Source: Escherichia phage moskry. Taken from it: a stretch of DNA of 64,000 nucleotides. The stretch lies in sequence record MN850651.1. One strand, written 5' to 3'. The notes below the pieces were generated by a model, which saw only the letters and a program-made list of their open reading frames with translations, made no database searches and was not told where the DNA came from. Position 1 is the stretch's first letter, and the number at the start of each line of letters is the position of its first letter. The position numbers and the translations under genes were made by a program. This document shows, one piece after another, positions 38,905 through 47,577 of the stretch.

Positions 38905-38934
38905 ATAGTATCACACATCCATGTGTTTGTAAAC
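38905..38934 (-). promoter_or_regulatory. Early promoter for the alt.-1-like ORF
   Basis: GTTTAC-N18-TACTAT; palindrome ACACATccATGTGT in the spacer. Confidence 0.55.
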
Positions 38935-41021
38935 TATCCTTGGACAAATTTAAACGGAACTGATTCTAAATCCATTAAAGATGCTAACAATTTCAATCCT
39001 TTAGGTGCACTAGTTTTTTCTACAAATGAAGAGAACGATACCGGCTCATCCGATTCGATTTCACCCGTCATAGCAACCACCTCGCCTGTTTCCATGAGAA
39101 CATCACCATCATAAATGACAGCTTCGTCCAACTGGTCCGAGGACATGACTTCAGCTTGAATAAATTTAAGGTTGGATTCTAAACCTGCACCAGTGTCAGA
39201 TGACGCATCTGTAATTTTATTTATTTGCAAGAGAATGCCTCTAGGCAAAATAATTTCTTGCTCATTAGGGTGATTACTCAACTGTCCTGGATAAATCACG
39301 TTAACTTTATGAGCGCCATCAATAGCCCATCCAACGTTAACACGGATTTGTTCTGGCGCATGCATAGCTGTTCTTACTTGACTAGGAGAAATAGTAACAC
39401 CTTCATCATTATTGTCAATGTTAAGCTCTTTGCGAACTTCTTCAGGAGCAAGTCCAAGGGCAACGTTCTCTTTAAACCCACCGAAAATAATAGGAGCTAG
39501 TGAAGTGGAAACATAGTTTCTGAAGTAGAATACCTTATTTTTAACCATTGCTTCGTAAATAGGCATTCTGATAGACTGAGCTCTATATAACGTTAGTCCT
39601 TCAGGTAAACGGTCTCCATTTAAAAACGCTGAATCAAGACCATCGATAGCGCGTTTAACTTCATCTTCATCTGCAACATCGTAAAAATCTGGTTTATAAC
39701 GACCTAACAACATATTATTGATATCGGTATACGCAGAAGAGGCATATTCGCGAATAGCTCGTTTTTCAGCAACAGAGTATTGTTTAGGGTCCCGATTCAT
39801 TGTTATATTAAAGGTGCCTCTAGCCGATTCTCGTGCATAAGTATACATCACATTAGACAAGAACGCTGATTTACGTTGTTTCCAAGTTTTTTCAGATACT
39901 TCAGCTAAAACGTCGTCAGCCAGTTGGAAATTATCTCGTCTAAAATCTTCAAACCATTCGTCTTTAATAGAGTCTGCAATTTCATTTGCAGCTTCAACAA
40001 AAGCAGCTAATGCTTTAACAGATGTTGTTTTTTCAGTTTTAATTTTCTTAGCAAACTTTTCTAAAGTTGGCTTAATAACACTACCATAAGAAACTTCATC
40101 GGCAAATCTAAAGGATTCATCAATACGATTATAAATCTTATTTTCGATATCAGCAACTAAAGTGCCTTTTGCTGTGGACGATGCTTGGGCTAGTACGATT
40201 TCATATGCTTCAGGAAGTAATTCGGCTGTAGCTGGGCCACTAACTTCTTTAGCAGAATTTTCGTATTTCTGGAATAACTCGCCTTCTTGGCGGTCAGCTT
40301 CTAAAGATTGACTTGCTGCAATAGCACGACGAGAAATTTTGGTGCGAGCAATAACCGGCTTATCTTTACGTTTTTCTTCTACCGCGGCAATAGAACCAGC
40401 GATAGCCGTTTCTTTGGTGACCTTTTCACCGGTCTTTTTACTCACATAAACTTCGCCAACATCAGAATCTACTTTCGTGTACAACTCTGTGTTAATGTTA
40501 GGGATGCCTTTAATATCCTCAATGTTGGCATTTTTACGAACCATCATCACATAGGTGTGTTTACCTGTGAATTGATACATTGCCGACAATACTTTAAAAC
40601 GACCACCGGTTTTAGTAGAAACTAAACGAGCAAGAAGAGTTTGAAGTTGTTGTCCGCGTCCTTTCAATTTCTTGGTAGGGAATCGGAACAGAACTGCATC
40701 CATACGAAGAGCTTTAACCTGTTCATATACTGTATTGAAAATGGTGTTGATTGCATCAATAGGAGCAGGACCAAGGCCGTTTTTCAATTCAGCGAGATTA
40801 CCCTTTTCAGACAGACTCATAATAACAACATGAGCGTATTTGTCGCCAAGTTTAACTTGTTTTACAGCGTCGCCTTCGGAAAGGTAAGAGAATAAACGAA
40901 CTACAATATTTGTATCAACATCACCAATTTTCCAGACTTGTGGAACTTTAGCTTTAGGGTTCAAATTGACGACAGGAAGACTGCCTTCAGATTCAAACAC
41001 TTCATTTAATTGTTCAGACAT
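38934..41021 (-). CDS. alt: Alt ADP-ribosyltransferase (packaged; modifies host RNA polymerase)
   Basis: 695 aa (T4 682 aa); C-terminal motifs YRAQ, VFYFRNYVSTSL, QAEV and ending PFKFVQG match T4 Alt. Confidence 0.8.
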   Translation of the reverse strand: MSEQLNEVFESEGSLPVVNLNPKAKVPQVWKIGDVDTNIVVRLFSYLSEGDAVKQVKLGDKYAHVVIMSLSEKGNLAELKNGLGPAPIDAINTIFNTVYEQVKALRMDAVLFRFPTKKLKGRGQQLQTLLARLVSTKTGGRFKVLSAMYQFTGKHTYVMMVRKNANIEDIKGIPNINTELYTKVDSDVGEVYVSKKTGEKVTKETAIAGSIAAVEEKRKDKPVIARTKISRRAIAASQSLEADRQEGELFQKYENSAKEVSGPATAELLPEAYEIVLAQASSTAKGTLVADIENKIYNRIDESFRFADEVSYGSVIKPTLEKFAKKIKTEKTTSVKALAAFVEAANEIADSIKDEWFEDFRRDNFQLADDVLAEVSEKTWKQRKSAFLSNVMYTYARESARGTFNITMNRDPKQYSVAEKRAIREYASSAYTDINNMLLGRYKPDFYDVADEDEVKRAIDGLDSAFLNGDRLPEGLTLYRAQSIRMPIYEAMVKNKVFYFRNYVSTSLAPIIFGGFKENVALGLAPEEVRKELNIDNNDEGVTISPSQVRTAMHAPEQIRVNVGWAIDGAHKVNVIYPGQLSNHPNEQEIILPRGILLQINKITDASSDTGAGLESNLKFIQAEVMSSDQLDEAVIYDGDVLMETGEVVAMTGEIESDEPVSFSSFVEKTSAPKGLKLLASLMDLESVPFKFVQG

Positions 41022-41078: not shown

Positions 41079-41265
41079 AATCCACAATCGGGAGCAAAGT
41101 ACGATAAACTTCAAAATTAGGGCCTTTTTCGTACGTATCAAAATTGTCCATAAAAATATTATAGGAATCGTTATTAGGAAAATCTAATATAATCTGAGAG
41201 CAAGAGGTGGAAACATCACCACCGTCTTTATTAGCGACAACTACTGTTTCTAAATAAGCTTTCAT
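41077..41265 (-). CDS. Hypothetical small protein
   Basis: Start taken at the ATG overlapping the ligase stop (TAATG); terminator hairpin downstream. Confidence 0.4.
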   Translation of the reverse strand: MKAYLETVVVANKDGGDVSTSCSQIILDFPNNDSYNIFMDNFDTYEKGPNFEVYRTLLPIVD

Positions 41266-42758
41266 TATAAACCTGTCTGGGACCACGGTCCAAATACGTC
41301 TTCAAATGAATCCGCTTCTGTTTTATCAAAACGGAACCCTTTAATAATTGGAAGGAAAATACCTACAGTACCTTCACGGCCTTTAGAATGAACCCAACCG
41401 TTACATTCACAATCAGCGATACGTCCAATTAATTTACCTTCACGAGCTTCGGTCATTAATCGTTCACGGTCTAAATCATGACGCTCGTCTAAAGGAATAA
41501 GAACCTTTACACCGTCAACTGTTTTATGAGTTGTATCTTTAAAACCTGAACCACAATCGGTTGTAATACGACGACAACGTGATACGAGTTCGACACCACC
41601 TAATTTGTTAGGGTCTTTAGAGTGTTCATAGTATCCTACAACTTCTAAAGCGATATCAATAACTTCTTTAAATTTAATTAGGTTCTTAGAGCGTTTGTTT
41701 TCCCAATATGAATCACGGTTTTTAAGGATAATACCTTCAAGACCTTGGTCAACATATTTTTTATAAACCACTTTAGCTTCGTCAAGATTACGAACTAACT
41801 GATTTTCAATTGGCTCAATTCGCTTAAAGCCTTCAGCCATATTTTCAAGAGCAGCAAAACGAACATCGTATTTCTGACCTTTAATTTTGCCATCAGAATA
41901 GACTTCATCTAAAGGAACATAGTCCCAGGCTTGAAGAACCATACCTTCCGCTTCTTTAGGAGAAATAGTCCCTTGAAGAGATTTATTTGCTAAACCATTT
42001 GAAGTGCTACGGTCTGCAACCTGTACTTCTTCGGATTCTTCATTATCACCAAATAAGAACGACAGGTCATTTCCTGAGCTCACGGCCTTTTTAATATCAA
42101 ATGAATGATAAACTAATTCACCGTCGATTAAAACCCCATTAGGGTGTCTTTCACGAGCTTCTTTAGTCATTTCCATTAGTTCATCCGCTAATAGAGTAAG
42201 ACCATGGTATTCATTACCAGCACGAGAAAAGAATTGAACACCATCATCGCGAACTTCAGCGAAACAACGAGCACCATCGGCTTTTAATTGAGCAAATGCA
42301 GGCCATTTAATATTTTTAGTAATCAATTTCTCATCATATGCAGATGCTAACATCTGTGGTTGCAATTGAATAAGACCAGGCCATACCTTATTCGCGATAG
42401 ACACTGAAGCACCTACTTCAAGGTCTCGCATCATTACACGGCGTAGTACTTCAACATCATCAGGTTTACCGTCGGCGATATAACCCATGAGCTCTTTAAT
42501 TGCTGCATTACCAGTGAGTTTACGAGTGGCCAATGTGAACTCAATAAAATCCAACATGTCATCTAATTCAAGAAGGCCATACGCTTGAGACCTTTCACCT
42601 GGCCCAGGCCATTTCTTAATATAATACTGAATGCCACGTGCATACGTTAAACGATATACACGTTCAAGTAATTTGTTGTCCTTATTTTTCTTAAGGATTT
42701 CCTGTTTTGTTTTAGTAGAACCGATCGCAGCTATTTGGTTTAAAATATCTAAAATCAT
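41265..42758 (-). CDS. 30: ATP-dependent DNA ligase gp30
   Basis: 497 aa; N-terminus matches T4 ligase; adenylation motif KADGARC. Confidence 0.95.
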   Translation of the reverse strand: MILDILNQIAAIGSTKTKQEILKKNKDNKLLERVYRLTYARGIQYYIKKWPGPGERSQAYGLLELDDMLDFIEFTLATRKLTGNAAIKELMGYIADGKPDDVEVLRRVMMRDLEVGASVSIANKVWPGLIQLQPQMLASAYDEKLITKNIKWPAFAQLKADGARCFAEVRDDGVQFFSRAGNEYHGLTLLADELMEMTKEARERHPNGVLIDGELVYHSFDIKKAVSSGNDLSFLFGDNEESEEVQVADRSTSNGLANKSLQGTISPKEAEGMVLQAWDYVPLDEVYSDGKIKGQKYDVRFAALENMAEGFKRIEPIENQLVRNLDEAKVVYKKYVDQGLEGIILKNRDSYWENKRSKNLIKFKEVIDIALEVVGYYEHSKDPNKLGGVELVSRCRRITTDCGSGFKDTTHKTVDGVKVLIPLDERHDLDRERLMTEAREGKLIGRIADCECNGWVHSKGREGTVGIFLPIIKGFRFDKTEADSFEDVFGPWSQTGL

Positions 42759-43033: not shown

Positions 43034-43849
43034 TTAACAATTTATAGACCAAGTCCATTTAGACGAATCTAAAGGAAAGTTTTGAATCGTCCACCATGGC
43101 TGCATATCGGTTGGTCCTGGGGTTCGCCAGGTATACGGATTCGACGGAGCGCCGATTTGATTAGGCCATGCGCCTGGACTTGTTGCACCAGATTCTTTAA
43201 GCAAATCTGCCAATCGTTTTAAAAGGTCTTCACGATCTGAATCTGAATTATGCTCTGGCGGAACCAATCGAGATTCAATATCATCCCACGTGTGTACACG
43301 TTGTGCAGTACGAGGAATGGCATCACGTTCACCACGAGCCAACCAATAAATTGGTACATTAAGAATTTCTGCTGCATGGTCACAGTGATGAGCTAAATCG
43401 TCAACGTAACAAATCACGTTATATTTTGTTTTAGCTAGTTCAAATAATTGTTCCTTTGAAGAATCATGACCACACATCATTACTTCAGAGAAAGCGCCTG
43501 GGAACAAAGCATTCAAATTAAATTGTCTATTCAATCTAGCATCAATTGAATCACCTAGCGCCGTCACGGCTACAAAATTATAGTCTTCTTTTAGTTTATT
43601 GATAACTCGAAGAGCATCCGAATAAGGCGCTAAGTAACGAATAAAATCAGAGCTATTATATTTTTCTATTAATTGTTTACCAAGGTTATCGTCGGTATTG
43701 AACAGTTTACCAGGAGAAATAAATTTTTCGTCCTGAATCATTTTTAAAATATGTTCTAATGGAAGATTATATTTTTGGGCAAAATAAGGAAGTCCAGATT
43801 GCCAGCTTAAACATACACCATCAATATCAGTCAAAATAGTAGGCTTCAT
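43034..43849 (-). CDS. Putative HAD-like hydrolase (30.2-like position)
   Basis: 271 aa; N-terminal DIDGV resembles HAD motif I; Trp/Pro-rich C-terminal tail. Confidence 0.45.
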   Translation of the reverse strand: MKPTILTDIDGVCLSWQSGLPYFAQKYNLPLEHILKMIQDEKFISPGKLFNTDDNLGKQLIEKYNSSDFIRYLAPYSDALRVINKLKEDYNFVAVTALGDSIDARLNRQFNLNALFPGAFSEVMMCGHDSSKEQLFELAKTKYNVICYVDDLAHHCDHAAEILNVPIYWLARGERDAIPRTAQRVHTWDDIESRLVPPEHNSDSDREDLLKRLADLLKESGATSPGAWPNQIGAPSNPYTWRTPGPTDMQPWWTIQNFPLDSSKWTWSINC

Positions 43850-44313
43850 AAAGAGTCTCTTAATAGGTTTAACACATCAATAAATTCAGCTTCGGTTAAT
43901 ATTGTATCATCTTTTGTTAGGTGGCTGGCCATGCTGTGCTTCAAAATTTTTCCTTTCGAAGCCTGTAATGCATCACGAAAGCCTTTGTTTTGGATCGCGG
44001 CTTCAAAATATGCATTTGTGTATAATTCTTTCCACGCTTCAGAGTATCTTGAAAATGGAACTCCTAACCAGAAGAGAGTCCCATGGTCCTGAGCTCTTGC
44101 ATAAGACCTTCCGGCTTGCTGTGCGGCCAGTCCTGACAGCCCAAATATACGTCTTTGTTGTTCAACATTTTTCACCTTACATCCTTGGAGAAATCCTTCA
44201 AGACCTCCGAATTGAATACCATCCATAACGAAAGGCCACTGGGCAAAATTACTTAATGCACATGACGGCCATCTAAAATTGCTTCTAATCTCTAACTCAG
44301 ACATCTTTAACAC
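43846..44313 (-). CDS. NADAR (YbiA/DUF1768)-like protein (30.3-like position)
   Basis: 155 aa; ALSNFAQWPFVMDGIQFGGLEGFLQGCKV resembles the YbiA core FSNFAAWP..DG..SEHYFQAQKF. Confidence 0.5.
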   Translation of the reverse strand: MLKMSELEIRSNFRWPSCALSNFAQWPFVMDGIQFGGLEGFLQGCKVKNVEQQRRIFGLSGLAAQQAGRSYARAQDHGTLFWLGVPFSRYSEAWKELYTNAYFEAAIQNKGFRDALQASKGKILKHSMASHLTKDDTILTEAEFIDVLNLLRDSL

Positions 44314-44509
44314 TTATAATTTCAACATCAGCCCAATGTCCATAAGCCGGTAGACGGTCTTTGATAGATAATCCACCGTCATATTTCAGCATTTTAATTG
44401 TTTTAGTATATGGTTCAACTTTTCGGGCCCATGGGCTTACATCAGTCACACGATACGTAACTTCAATCATTTCCATACCAAACAATTTCTGGATTAATTT
44501 ATTCAACAT
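44297..44509 (-). CDS. Hypothetical protein
   Basis: 70-aa ORF in an overlapping early operon. Confidence 0.4.
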   Translation of the reverse strand: MLNKLIQKLFGMEMIEVTYRVTDVSPWARKVEPYTKTIKMLKYDGGLSIKDRLPAYGHWADVEIISVKDV

Positions 44510-44720: not shown

Positions 44721-44751
44721 GTTATACTCTAATCCGTTCTTGGATGTAAAC
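44721..44751 (-). promoter_or_regulatory. Weak candidate early promoter
   Basis: GTTTAC-N19-TATAAC; non-consensus -10 and long spacer. Confidence 0.3.
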
Positions 44752-45365
44752 TACTTAACGAAATTAATTTCTACCGGATGAACAACAGGTTGAGCAGTGA
44801 TATATTGAGTAATTGCTTTCATGACTAGAGCTTCAGAACCAGGATTTTTCTCAACGAATTCACGTGCTTGGTTATGGGCTTCAAGTTCACTTAGTAAACC
44901 GGAACGTTGGCATCCACGGTCTTGAGTACCCTGTTCAGATAAAAAGACGACTATGTATTTTTCATCGTCATACGGTTTAGACGGTTGAGCAAATGTTCCT
45001 TTACTTCCAAAAGGAGAGTTATGACGCCACATCACGCCGTGAGGAGTTTCAACCTTCGTATATTCGTGCGGGCCATTTTTCTTAGTTTCTTGATGTGGAA
45101 CTTCGTGGACCTTAGGGTTAGGACATTCAATAAAATGCTCATCTAAATCGGTCGAGAATATTAAAGTAAAACAATTACTAAATTTACCAACACCTGCCTG
45201 ATAAATTTTACCTTCAGAAGTTCTAATTTCACAAACTGAGCCAGCATCAGTAACTTCTAAAACTTCAAAAGGCTCGATAAGGTCATATGAGAACATGTTT
45301 TTAAGGCGTGGAGTAATATCCCCATTTTTAAAATTCATTTTATAAAAAGTATTAACTTTAAACAT
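44751..45365 (-). CDS. Hypothetical protein
   Basis: 204 aa; RBS GAGGA; UUCG hairpin immediately upstream. Confidence 0.5.
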   Translation of the reverse strand: MFKVNTFYKMNFKNGDITPRLKNMFSYDLIEPFEVLEVTDAGSVCEIRTSEGKIYQAGVGKFSNCFTLIFSTDLDEHFIECPNPKVHEVPHQETKKNGPHEYTKVETPHGVMWRHNSPFGSKGTFAQPSKPYDDEKYIVVFLSEQGTQDRGCQRSGLLSELEAHNQAREFVEKNPGSEALVMKAITQYITAQPVVHPVEINFVK

Positions 45366-47552: not shown

Positions 47553-47577
47553 ATAATACCATACTATTCGTAAAGCA
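47553..47577 (-). promoter_or_regulatory. MotA-dependent middle promoter for gene 31
   Basis: MotA box TGCTTTA, 12-nt spacer, -10 TATTAT; RBS AAGGA. Confidence 0.6.

What the first reader, a model, noticed from the sequence alone, without database searches (positions are those of the whole stretch)
43034..44313. NADAR-like protein and HAD-like hydrolase adjacent in the 30.x early island
ORF 43846-44313 has the YbiA/NADAR core (ALSNFAQWPFVMDGIQFGGLEGFLQGCKV). NADAR enzymes remove ADP-ribose from guanine bases and can reverse DarT-type DNA ADP-ribosylation, so a phage copy is a plausible counter-defence factor. The translationally coupled upstream ORF 43034-43849 begins with a HAD-like DxDG motif and ends in an unusual Trp/Pro-rich tail. 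Both functions are inferred from short motifs only.
Basis: partly seen in the sequence, partly recalled or inferred. Interest (0 to 1): 0.5.

Follow-up and report, generated by a model that had tools for sequence, protein, structure and literature searches.

The report
Known anti-DarT enzyme plus uncharacterised phosphatase
These two neighbouring phage genes are an intact copy of AdfN, an already characterised enzyme that strips a bacterial defence mark (ADP-ribose) off phage DNA, and a conserved phosphatase of unknown role that published T4 data show is not needed for that counter-defence, so the finding is correct but ordinary.

Summary
Both ORFs are real. They lie on the minus strand of a T4-like phage of the genus Mosigvirus (the RB69 genus).

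**Gene 30.3 (43846-44304)**
- It is a full-length member of Pfam Phage_30_3 and 96% identical to T4 gp30.3.
- T4 gp30.3 was characterised in 2024 as AdfN, a NADAR DNA ADP-ribosylglycohydrolase that is necessary and sufficient to defeat the DarTG1 defence system.
- The window copy keeps E36, K43, the subfamily histidine H123 and the C-terminal helix.
- It lacks the one-base insertion that inactivates the RB69 copy.
- Its model matches the three solved NADAR structures and nothing else.

**Gene 30.2 (43034-43849)**
- It is a confident HAD-fold phosphatase. All four catalytic motifs are present and it has a helical C1 cap.
- It is a divergent branch of the 5'(3')-deoxyribonucleotidase-like (NT5C) group.
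- It ends in a disordered, lineage-specific Trp/Pro-rich tail that is under purifying selection.
- Its function is untested.

**Are the two a pair?** The adjacency holds in only some lineages, while 30.2 stays next to the ligase gene. Published T4 transposon data show that 30.2 is dispensable on a DarTG1 host and 30.3 is not.

**Verdict:** Interest is low.

The parts
43846..44304 (-). Gene 30.3 / adfN: 152-aa NADAR-superfamily DNA ADP-ribosylglycohydrolase, ATG start at 44304, stop at 43846-43848
   Evidence: Pfam PF08010 at 231.7 bits against a cut-off of 36. 96% identity to T4 gp30.3. AF2 pLDDT 94, and the Foldseek top three are 2b3w, 8bat and 8bau.
44197..44199 (-). Codon for catalytic Glu36 of AdfN
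   Evidence: GAA read from the sequence. Invariant in the 45-sequence family alignment. E36A abolishes T4 AdfN function (PMC11257639).
44176..44178 (-). Codon for catalytic Lys43 of AdfN
   Evidence: AAG read from the sequence. Conserved in at least 90% of the family. K43A abolishes function in T4.
43936..43938 (-). Codon for His123, the histidine in the last beta-strand that marks the phage gp30.3 NADAR subfamily
   Evidence: CAC read from the sequence. Invariant in alignment A4. The subfamily definition is in PMC11125620.
43849..43895 (-). Intact 3' end of adfN encoding the C-terminal helix. The site where RB69 carries its inactivating extra T lies at about 43894/43895 and is in frame here.
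   Evidence: DNA alignment of window, RB69 and T4. Only the two RB69 records among 608 carry the insertion.
43846..43849 (-). ATGA overlap: the stop of 30.3 overlaps the start of 30.2 (possible translational coupling)
   Evidence: Read from the sequence. The same overlap is found in T4. It is lost in RB69, where truncation leaves a 42-nt gap.
44297..44304 (-). 8-nt overlap between the end of 30.4 and the ATG of 30.3
   Evidence: The arrangement is the same in T4. T4 30.4 insertions are mildly depleted on DarTG1, which suggests polarity.
43265..43849 (-). Gene 30.2, residues 1-195: HAD-superfamily phosphatase core with a helical C1 cap
43814..43828 (-). HAD motif I, D8-I-D10-G-V12 (nucleophile Asp and general acid/base Asp)
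   Evidence: Sequence; invariant D8, D10, G11.
43037..43264 (-). Gene 30.2, residues 196-271: one helix (203-219) followed by a disordered Trp/Pro-rich tail specific to a Mosigvirus clade
   Evidence: pLDDT below 50 for 225-271. This tail class occurs in 149 records and only inside 30.2. pN/pS is 0.17 against 0.03 in the core. It is not a frameshift of the T4 tail.

Best explanation
The window comes from a Mosigvirus, a T4-like phage of the RB69 genus.

**Gene 30.3 is an intact orthologue of T4 adfN.** It encodes a small NADAR-fold glycohydrolase. When the host toxin DarT1 ADP-ribosylates guanines in replicating phage DNA, AdfN cleaves the ADP-ribose off the base, so replication continues. In effect the phage carries an orphan copy of the antitoxin activity. 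[quoted passage not shown] Function in this phage is inferred from 96% identity, the conserved catalytic residues and the intact C-terminus.

**Gene 30.2 is an independent, non-essential enzyme.** It is a Mg-dependent HAD phosphatase with a C1 cap, so it most likely acts on a small phospho-ester. The best guess for the substrate is a (deoxy)nucleoside monophosphate, because the family is a divergent branch of the NT5C 5'(3')-deoxyribonucleotidase group. The HAD chemistry is inferred strongly from motifs and fold. The nucleotide substrate is inferred weakly.

**The tail and the pairing.** The C-terminal aromatic/proline-rich tail of gp30.2 is a lineage-specific disordered extension, possibly a partner-binding or localisation module. 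This is speculation. The two genes are co-transcribed neighbours, not a functional pair.
For: **AdfN**
- Pfam PF08010 E=2.7e-69.
- 96% identity to T4 gp30.3, with E36, K43 and H123 present and a full C-terminus.
- The gp30.3 family profile hits YbiA 2b3w at E=0.0045.
- The pLDDT-94 model has 2b3w, 8bat and 8bau as its top three PDB matches.
- The RB69 frameshift is absent.
- Experiments on the T4 orthologue: PMC11257639; in vitro guanine-ADPr hydrolysis in PMC11125620; HIDEN-SEQ gives 30.3 a log2FC of -7.25 on DarTG1.

**gp30.2**
- All four HAD motifs are conserved in 49 homologues.
- Model pLDDT is above 90 over residues 1-195, with helices 16-86 inserted between motifs I and II.
- The best PDB sequence hit is mouse cdN 2jao.
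- NT5C matches 7 of 49 close relatives and 29 of 50 distant relatives, best E=4e-10.
- Invariant W16, F43 and Y64 align with the cdN aromatic residues F18, F44 and Y65 (the role of those cdN residues is from my memory of Wallden et al. 2007).

**Independence of the two genes**
- T4 30.2 is non-essential: 72 of 72 insertion sites are hit.
- T4 30.2 is neutral on DarTG1: log2FC -0.12, p=0.61.
- 30.3 is directly upstream of 30.2 in only 3 of 9 lineages, while 30.2 abuts the ligase gene in 8 of 9.
Against: - No experiment was done on this phage. The six substitutions relative to T4 AdfN are untested.
- The window protein does not itself hit the Pfam NADAR model PF08719.
- For gp30.2, no Pfam or NCBIfam model reaches its cut-off on the window protein.
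- The cdN sequence match is only E=0.12-0.2, so the nucleotide substrate is a lead, not a result.
- No phenotype of 30.2 is known in any condition examined.
- I identified the supplement sheet read as the DarTG1 comparison from the sheet order and the 30.3 result. Its header was not in the part I read.
Confidence: 0.85

Rival explanations
1. gp30.2 and AdfN are a two-enzyme module. AdfN releases ADP-ribose from DNA, and the HAD phosphatase then processes that product or a phosphorylated derivative. Translational coupling would keep the two in proportion.
For: ATGA overlap. Direct adjacency in T4, Dhakavirus IME08 and Acinetobacter phage KARL-1. Near-identical distribution across phage records, 1438 against 1510. 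The published 'sufficiency' experiments always had a phage-borne 30.2 present.
Against: T4 30.2 insertions are neutral on DarTG1 while 30.3 insertions are lost. Purified AdfN alone is active in vitro. 30.3 is two genes away in KP15 and S13, and it is not within 3 kb of 30.2 in four other lineages. Both genes are near-universal in T4-like phages, so co-occurrence says little.
Confidence: 0.05
2. gp30.2 is a small-molecule HAD phosphatase that acts on something other than a nucleotide, such as a sugar phosphate or phosphoglycolate-type metabolite.
Confidence: 0.3
3. gp30.2 is a DNA-end (3'-phosphate) phosphatase that prepares nicks for the adjacent DNA ligase gp30.
For: 30.2 sits immediately upstream of ligase gene 30, with zero or one small ORF between, in 8 of 9 lineages examined. 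HAD phosphatases include the polynucleotide-kinase 3'-phosphatase domain (established knowledge).
Against: The model has a roughly 70-residue helical C1 cap over the active site. In HAD enzymes such a cap goes with small substrates, whereas macromolecule-acting members lack a cap (established knowledge). These phages already encode PseT. Conserved gene order in T4-like core regions is common without a functional link.
Confidence: 0.08
4. gp30.3 acts mainly on soluble ADP-ribose derivatives or riboflavin-pathway intermediates, as proposed for YbiA-type NADARs, and not on DNA.
For: The closest solved structure is YbiA. A 2022 survey predicted that phage NADARs prefer soluble ADPr derivatives (PMC9503650).
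Against: There is direct in vitro de-ADP-ribosylation of DNA, and genetic necessity against DarT1, for the 96%-identical T4 protein.
Confidence: 0.03

Closest known systems
T4 AdfN (gp30.3), anti-DarT factor NADAR (Johannesman, Carlson & LeRoux 2024, PMC11257639)
   Same: 96% amino-acid identity and the same length (152 aa). It has the same E36, K43 and H123 and the same C-terminal helix. It occupies the same position between 30.4 and 30.2, with the same 8-nt and 4-nt overlaps.
   Different: There are six substitutions, none at known catalytic positions. The host phage is a Mosigvirus, whose best-known member RB69 has arabinosylated hydroxymethyl-C DNA, whereas T4's is glucosylated. No experiment has been done on this copy.
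RB69 gp30.3 (the natural null allele of adfN)
   Same: Same genus and the same locus. The neighbouring gp30.2 is 99% identical.
   Different: RB69 has one extra T that creates a premature stop. This removes the last 15 residues and makes RB69 DarTG1-sensitive. The window lacks that insertion, and so do the other 606 of 608 matching records.
DarG1-type NADAR antitoxin (Geobacter lovleyi, PDB 8bat) and E. coli YbiA (PDB 2b3w)
   Same: Same NADAR fold: TM 0.57-0.68, and these are the top PDB matches. They share the motif around the catalytic Glu and Lys.
   Different: It is an orphan gene with no DarT partner. The last-strand catalytic residue is His instead of Asp (DarG1 type) or Glu (YbiA type). 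T4 AdfN does not rescue uninfected cells from DarT1, probably because it prefers hydroxymethylated phage DNA.
Cytosolic and mitochondrial 5'(3')-deoxyribonucleotidases cdN/mdN (Pfam NT5C; PDB 2jao, 2i7d, 1q92) and the bacterial homologue 3bwv
   Same: HAD core with a DxD nucleophile motif and a helical C1 cap. This is the best PDB sequence hit and is among the tightest Foldseek superpositions (rmsd 4-5 A, TMt 0.62-0.70). Conserved aromatics lie at the aligned cap positions. Distant relatives of gp30.2 match NT5C.
   Different: Identity is only 15-19%. The window protein does not reach the NT5C threshold. gp30.2 carries an extra helix and a 50-residue disordered Trp/Pro-rich tail that cdN/mdN lack. 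The substrate is unknown.

Membership tests
Phage gp30.3 / AdfN branch of the NADAR superfamily | Match to Pfam Phage_30_3 (PF08010) above the gathering score | tested here: met
   231.7 bits against a cut-off of 36, covering profile positions 1-138 of 138.
Phage gp30.3 / AdfN branch of the NADAR superfamily | NADAR alpha+beta fold | tested here: met
   AF2 pLDDT 94. The Foldseek PDB top three are YbiA 2b3w (E=2.3e-4, TM 0.68), the Geobacter NADAR 8bat and the Phytophthora NADAR 8bau. Nothing else scores below E=3.
Phage gp30.3 / AdfN branch of the NADAR superfamily | Catalytic Glu and Lys (E36 and K43 in T4 AdfN) | tested here: met
   Both are present. E36 is invariant and K43 is conserved in at least 90% of 45 family members.
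Phage gp30.3 / AdfN branch of the NADAR superfamily | Histidine in the last beta-strand (Asp in DarG1-type NADARs, Glu in YbiA-type) | tested here: met
   H123 sits in strand 120-122/LKHS and is invariant in A4. The definition comes from PMC11125620.
Phage gp30.3 / AdfN branch of the NADAR superfamily | Intact C-terminal helix (lost in the inactive RB69 allele) | tested here: met
   The full 152 aa ends ...LNLLRDSL, as in T4. The RB69 insertion is absent.
Phage gp30.3 / AdfN branch of the NADAR superfamily | Removes ADP-ribose from guanine in DNA and protects the phage from DarTG1 | not testable with these tools
   Shown only for the T4 orthologue.
Pfam NADAR (PF08719, YbiA/DUF1768) proper | Direct match to the PF08719 model | tested here: not met
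   No hit at E<=0.1 for the window protein. The link is indirect: a family profile hits YbiA at E=0.0045, one family member carries both Pfam domains (P0178), and the fold matches. It belongs to the superfamily, not to this Pfam family.
HAD (haloacid dehalogenase-like) phosphatase superfamily | Four catalytic motifs: I DxDx(T/V), II S/T, III K/R, IV DD | tested here: met
   D8-I-D10-G-V12, T96, K132 and D150-D151 are invariant or at least 90% conserved in 49 homologues. D8, D10 and K132 remain invariant in 51 more distant sequences. The second Asp of motif I indicates phosphoryl transfer, not dehalogenation (established knowledge).
HAD (haloacid dehalogenase-like) phosphatase superfamily | Rossmann-like HAD core fold with a cap insertion | tested here: met
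HAD (haloacid dehalogenase-like) phosphatase superfamily | Curated profile match above threshold | tested here: not met
   HAD_2 scores 16 bits against a cut-off of 23.8. NCBIfam HAD_type_II scores 12.7 against 125.4. The sequence is too divergent for the curated models, so membership rests on motifs and fold.
NT5C 5'(3')-deoxyribonucleotidase family | Match to Pfam PF06941 | tested here: inconclusive
   The window protein has no hit. 7 of 49 close homologues match at E<0.1. 29 of 50 distant relatives recruited by the gp30.2 profile match at E<=0.01, best 4.2e-10.
NT5C 5'(3')-deoxyribonucleotidase family | Aromatic cap residues that stack on the nucleobase | tested here: inconclusive
   W16, F43 and Y64, all invariant, align with F20, F46 and Y67 of mouse cdN. 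That alignment has only E=0.12, and the role of the cdN residues is recalled from the literature, not verified here (searches did not retrieve it).
NT5C 5'(3')-deoxyribonucleotidase family | Dephosphorylates deoxyribonucleoside monophosphates | not testable with these tools
   No biochemical data on any gp30.2 homologue was found.

The most novel reading that the evidence does not exclude
gp30.2 is a phage-specific NT5C-like (deoxy)nucleotidase. Its fast-evolving, swappable aromatic/proline-rich tail docks it onto a lineage-specific partner. Its real role would be conditional, for example destroying a nucleotide-derived immune signal or toxic nucleotide, or trimming a dNMP pool on hosts that carry a particular defence system. 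That would explain why the gene is nearly universal in T4-like phages and yet dispensable in every laboratory condition examined so far.
Probability: 0.2. Interest if true: 0.45.

Novelty: already known. Interest (0 to 1): 0.15.

Why it matters
- It confirms that this Mosigvirus carries a functional-looking adfN, so the phage should plaque on DarTG1-bearing hosts. RB69, the type phage of the same genus, carries a unique null allele and does not. This is a useful annotation and host-range prediction, not a discovery.
- The only open question is gp30.2. It is a near-universal, highly conserved but dispensable HAD enzyme in T4-like phages, with no known substrate or phenotype.
- Placing gp30.2 next to the deoxyribonucleotidases, and showing that it is not part of the anti-DarT mechanism, narrows the experiments worth doing.

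Tried and rejected
- **Direct sequence searches.** The 152-aa protein gave no PDB hit and no NCBIfam hit. Only a family profile and the fold search exposed the NADAR link.
- **Literature on gp30.2.** The term 'gp30.2' gave no papers. The search 'phage T4 / 30.2 / phosphatase' returned only a false lead, an HPLC gradient time in PMC12697855.
- **Verifying the cdN base-pocket residues.** The searches did not retrieve the primary paper. PMC3946280 supports only the general point that HAD 5'-nucleotidases stack the base between cap aromatics.
- **Tail as a frameshift artefact.** Rejected. No alternative frame encodes the T4-type GIEYLxxxPT motif, the DNA is simply divergent, and the tail shows purifying selection. 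The different distal tail in AV109 is a sequence replacement, not a frameshift.
- **Functional NADAR-HAD pair.** Rejected on the synteny survey and the T4 DarTG1 transposon data.
- **A local promoter for the pair.** Sigma-70-like sites are not above chance, 22 against 19.2 expected. No MotA-box-like site lies between 43.0 and 47.5 kb.
- **Names for the distant gp30.2 relatives.** None was found; they are all anonymous metagenome proteins.
- **My first genus call.** I initially took the phage for a Tequatrovirus and corrected this to Mosigvirus.

Full report
**What is there.** The region lies in the leftward-transcribed 30.x cluster of a T4-like phage. On the minus strand the order is: 30.7, a 204-aa ORF, 30.5, 30.4, 30.3 (43846-44304), 30.2 (43034-43849), 30.1 (DUF3045), DNA ligase gene 30 (41265-42758), alt.1 and alt. 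The nearest public genome is Escherichia phage vB_EcoM-pEK20 at 97.5% identity. It belongs to Mosigvirus JS09, so the window is from the RB69 genus and not from Tequatrovirus. One correction is needed. The ORF list starts 30.3 at a GTG (44313), but the annotated start in T4 and pEK20 is the ATG at 44304. That start gives 152 aa and the published residue numbering.

**Gene 30.3 is adfN.** The protein matches Pfam Phage_30_3 end to end (E=2.7e-69) and is 96% identical to T4 gp30.3. The window protein gives no direct hit to the Pfam NADAR model, to NCBIfam or to PDB sequences.
- One family member carries both PF08010 and PF08719.
- An AlphaFold model with pLDDT 94 has the three solved NADARs as its only meaningful PDB matches: YbiA, the Geobacter lovleyi NADAR and the Phytophthora NADAR.

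The literature had already closed the question.
- Johannesman, Carlson and LeRoux (PMC11257639) mapped DarTG1 resistance in T-even phages to gene 30.3 and renamed it adfN. Deleting it costs T4 and T2 about four logs of plaquing on DarTG1. Ectopic expression fully rescues RB69. The E36A and K43A mutants are dead. The purified protein removes ADP-ribose from DNA.
- An independent study showed that the phage NADAR hydrolyses guanine-linked but not thymine-linked ADP-ribose. It defined the gp30.3 subfamily by a histidine in the last strand (PMC11125620).
- A T4 transposon screen found 30.3 dispensable on K-12 but lost on DarTG1.

The window protein has E36, K43 and H123 (codons GAA, AAG and CAC at 44197-44199, 44176-44178 and 43936-43938) and the complete C-terminal helix.

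**The RB69 comparison.** RB69 is sensitive to DarTG1 because an extra T in its 30.3 creates a premature stop and removes the last helix. I aligned the window, RB69 and T4 at the DNA level. RB69 reads CTAACTTGA, whereas the window reads TTAAC-CGAAGCT in frame, like T4. A 71-nt probe across the site matched full-length at 100% only in the two RB69 records out of 608. The listed hits in other phages span 70 nt, so they lack the insertion. The window therefore carries the normal, intact allele, and this phage is predicted to resist DarTG1. AdfN does not counter DarTG2. It also does not detoxify DarT1 in uninfected cells, probably because it prefers hydroxymethylated phage DNA.

**Gene 30.2 is a HAD phosphatase, probably nucleotidase-like.** The curated profiles are only weakly positive (HAD_2 at 16 bits against a 23.8 cut-off). 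The case rests on other evidence.
- In 49 homologues the four HAD motifs are conserved: D8-x-D10-G, T96, K132 and D150-D151.
- The model has pLDDT above 90 over residues 1-195, with a helical insertion (16-86) at the C1 cap position.
- The DxD motif points to phosphoryl transfer, not dehalogenation.

- The best PDB sequence hit, for both the single sequence and the profile, is mouse cytosolic 5'(3')-deoxyribonucleotidase.
- Foldseek's tightest superpositions are with cdN, mdN and 3bwv.
- NT5C matches 7 of 49 close homologues.
- An exhaustive profile search recruited 1130 representatives. Of 50 distant, tail-less relatives, 29 match NT5C, best E=4e-10.
- In the cdN alignment, invariant W16, F43 and Y64 fall on F20, F46 and Y67 of the mouse enzyme. 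I recall these as the base-pocket aromatics (F18, F44 and Y65 in human numbering). The +2 offset checks out, but I could not retrieve the primary paper.

I rate 'HAD phosphatase' at about 0.9 and 'nucleotide substrate' at about 0.45.

**The tail.** Residues 196-271 form one helix (203-219) and then a segment with pLDDT below 50. Across the family, tails range from 0 to 114 residues and fall into classes.
- A G-I-E-Y-L-x-x-x-P-T class, in 11 of 49 sequences including T4.
- An LRAYY class.
- A PRLTC class.
- The window's class, ending PWWTIQNFPLDSSKWTWSINC.

The window and T4 tails share only TWRTPG. The window's class occurs in 149 Escherichia and Shigella phage records, always inside 30.2, and RB69 has it unchanged. 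It is not a frameshifted T4 tail. Phage AV109 has a replaced distal segment. Among seven Mosigvirus alleles, pN/pS is 0.17 in the tail against 0.03 in the core. Window against RB69 shows 7 synonymous and 0 non-synonymous changes in the tail. The pairs are not independent, so the ratio is rough. The tail is therefore a real, selected, modular extension of unknown role.

**Are the two genes a pair?** The overlap and adjacency suggest it, but the evidence says no.
- 30.3 sits directly upstream of 30.2 only in T4, Dhakavirus IME08 and Acinetobacter phage KARL-1.
- Two small genes intervene in KP15 and Cronobacter S13.
- No 30.3 lies within 3 kb of 30.2 in a Jiaodavirus, in Aeromonas phages Aes508 and 65, or in Vibrio phage D480.
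- By contrast, 30.2 abuts the ligase gene in 8 of 9 lineages.
- In the T4 HIDEN-SEQ data, 30.2 tolerates insertions at 72 of 72 sites.
- On the DarTG1 host, 30.2 shows log2FC -0.12 (p=0.61), while 30.3 shows -7.25 and upstream 30.4 shows -1.79, the latter consistent with polarity. I identified that sheet as the DarTG1 comparison from the sheet order and the 30.3 result.

No promoter-like signal separates the genes. They are co-expressed neighbours with separate jobs.

**Verdict.** The HAD gene remains an uncharacterised conserved phage gene. The modest additions here are its placement beside the deoxyribonucleotidases, the description of its modular tail, and the evidence that it is not part of the DarT counter-defence. 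Novelty: already known. Interest: 0.15.

Noticed in passing
window 44751-45365 (-): A 204-aa ORF (phrog_17531, E=4e-146, no Pfam hit) sits between 30.5 and 30.7, where T4 and RB69 have the 95-aa gene 30.6. pEK20 has the same ORF. This looks like a variable slot in the 30.x cluster.
   Followed up: partly
whole window; nearest site to the finding at 47553-47577 (-): MotA-box-type middle-promoter patterns (TGCTTNA, 10-14 nt, TANNNT) are enriched: 20 found against 6.4 expected, with none of 100 shuffles reaching 20. Most are on the minus strand. None lies between 43.0 and 47.5 kb, so 30.9 through 30.1 probably form one transcription unit.
   Followed up: partly
L005 (Vibrio phage D480) 2950-3576: In this large Vibrio phage the (weaker) gp30.2 homologue lies next to a nicotinamide phosphoribosyltransferase gene, not next to the ligase. 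The genome has a second match elsewhere. This is a possible link to NAD or nucleotide salvage.
   Followed up: no
L001 (T4) 30.2 tail, and 10 other homologues in alignment A3: A short motif, G-(I/V)-E-Y-(L/W)-x-x-x-P-T, recurs near the C-terminus of gp30.2 tails in T4 and in Klebsiella, Enterobacter and Citrobacter phages. The tails are otherwise unalignable. It looks like a conserved short linear motif. The window's allele lacks it.
   Followed up: partly
L014 (Escherichia phage AV109) 316-1152: This Mosigvirus has the window-type tail up to ...TDMQP and then a completely different 27-residue end, produced by sequence replacement and not by a frameshift. The distal tail is exchangeable.
   Followed up: partly
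window 44297-44509 (-), gene 30.4: In the published T4 transposon data, 30.4 (log2FC -1.79, adjusted p 0.014) and 30.5 (-3.0, not significant) are also depleted on the DarTG1 host. This is probably a polar effect on adfN through the 8-nt overlap, but a contribution by 30.4 itself is not excluded.
   Followed up: no
window 38934-41021 (-): The Alt-like ADP-ribosyltransferase gene (695 aa, ADPrib_exo_Tox E=6e-28) lies about 3 kb downstream of adfN in the same orientation. The phage therefore encodes an ADP-ribose writer and an ADP-ribose eraser in one region, as noted for T4-like phages in PMC9503650.
   Followed up: no
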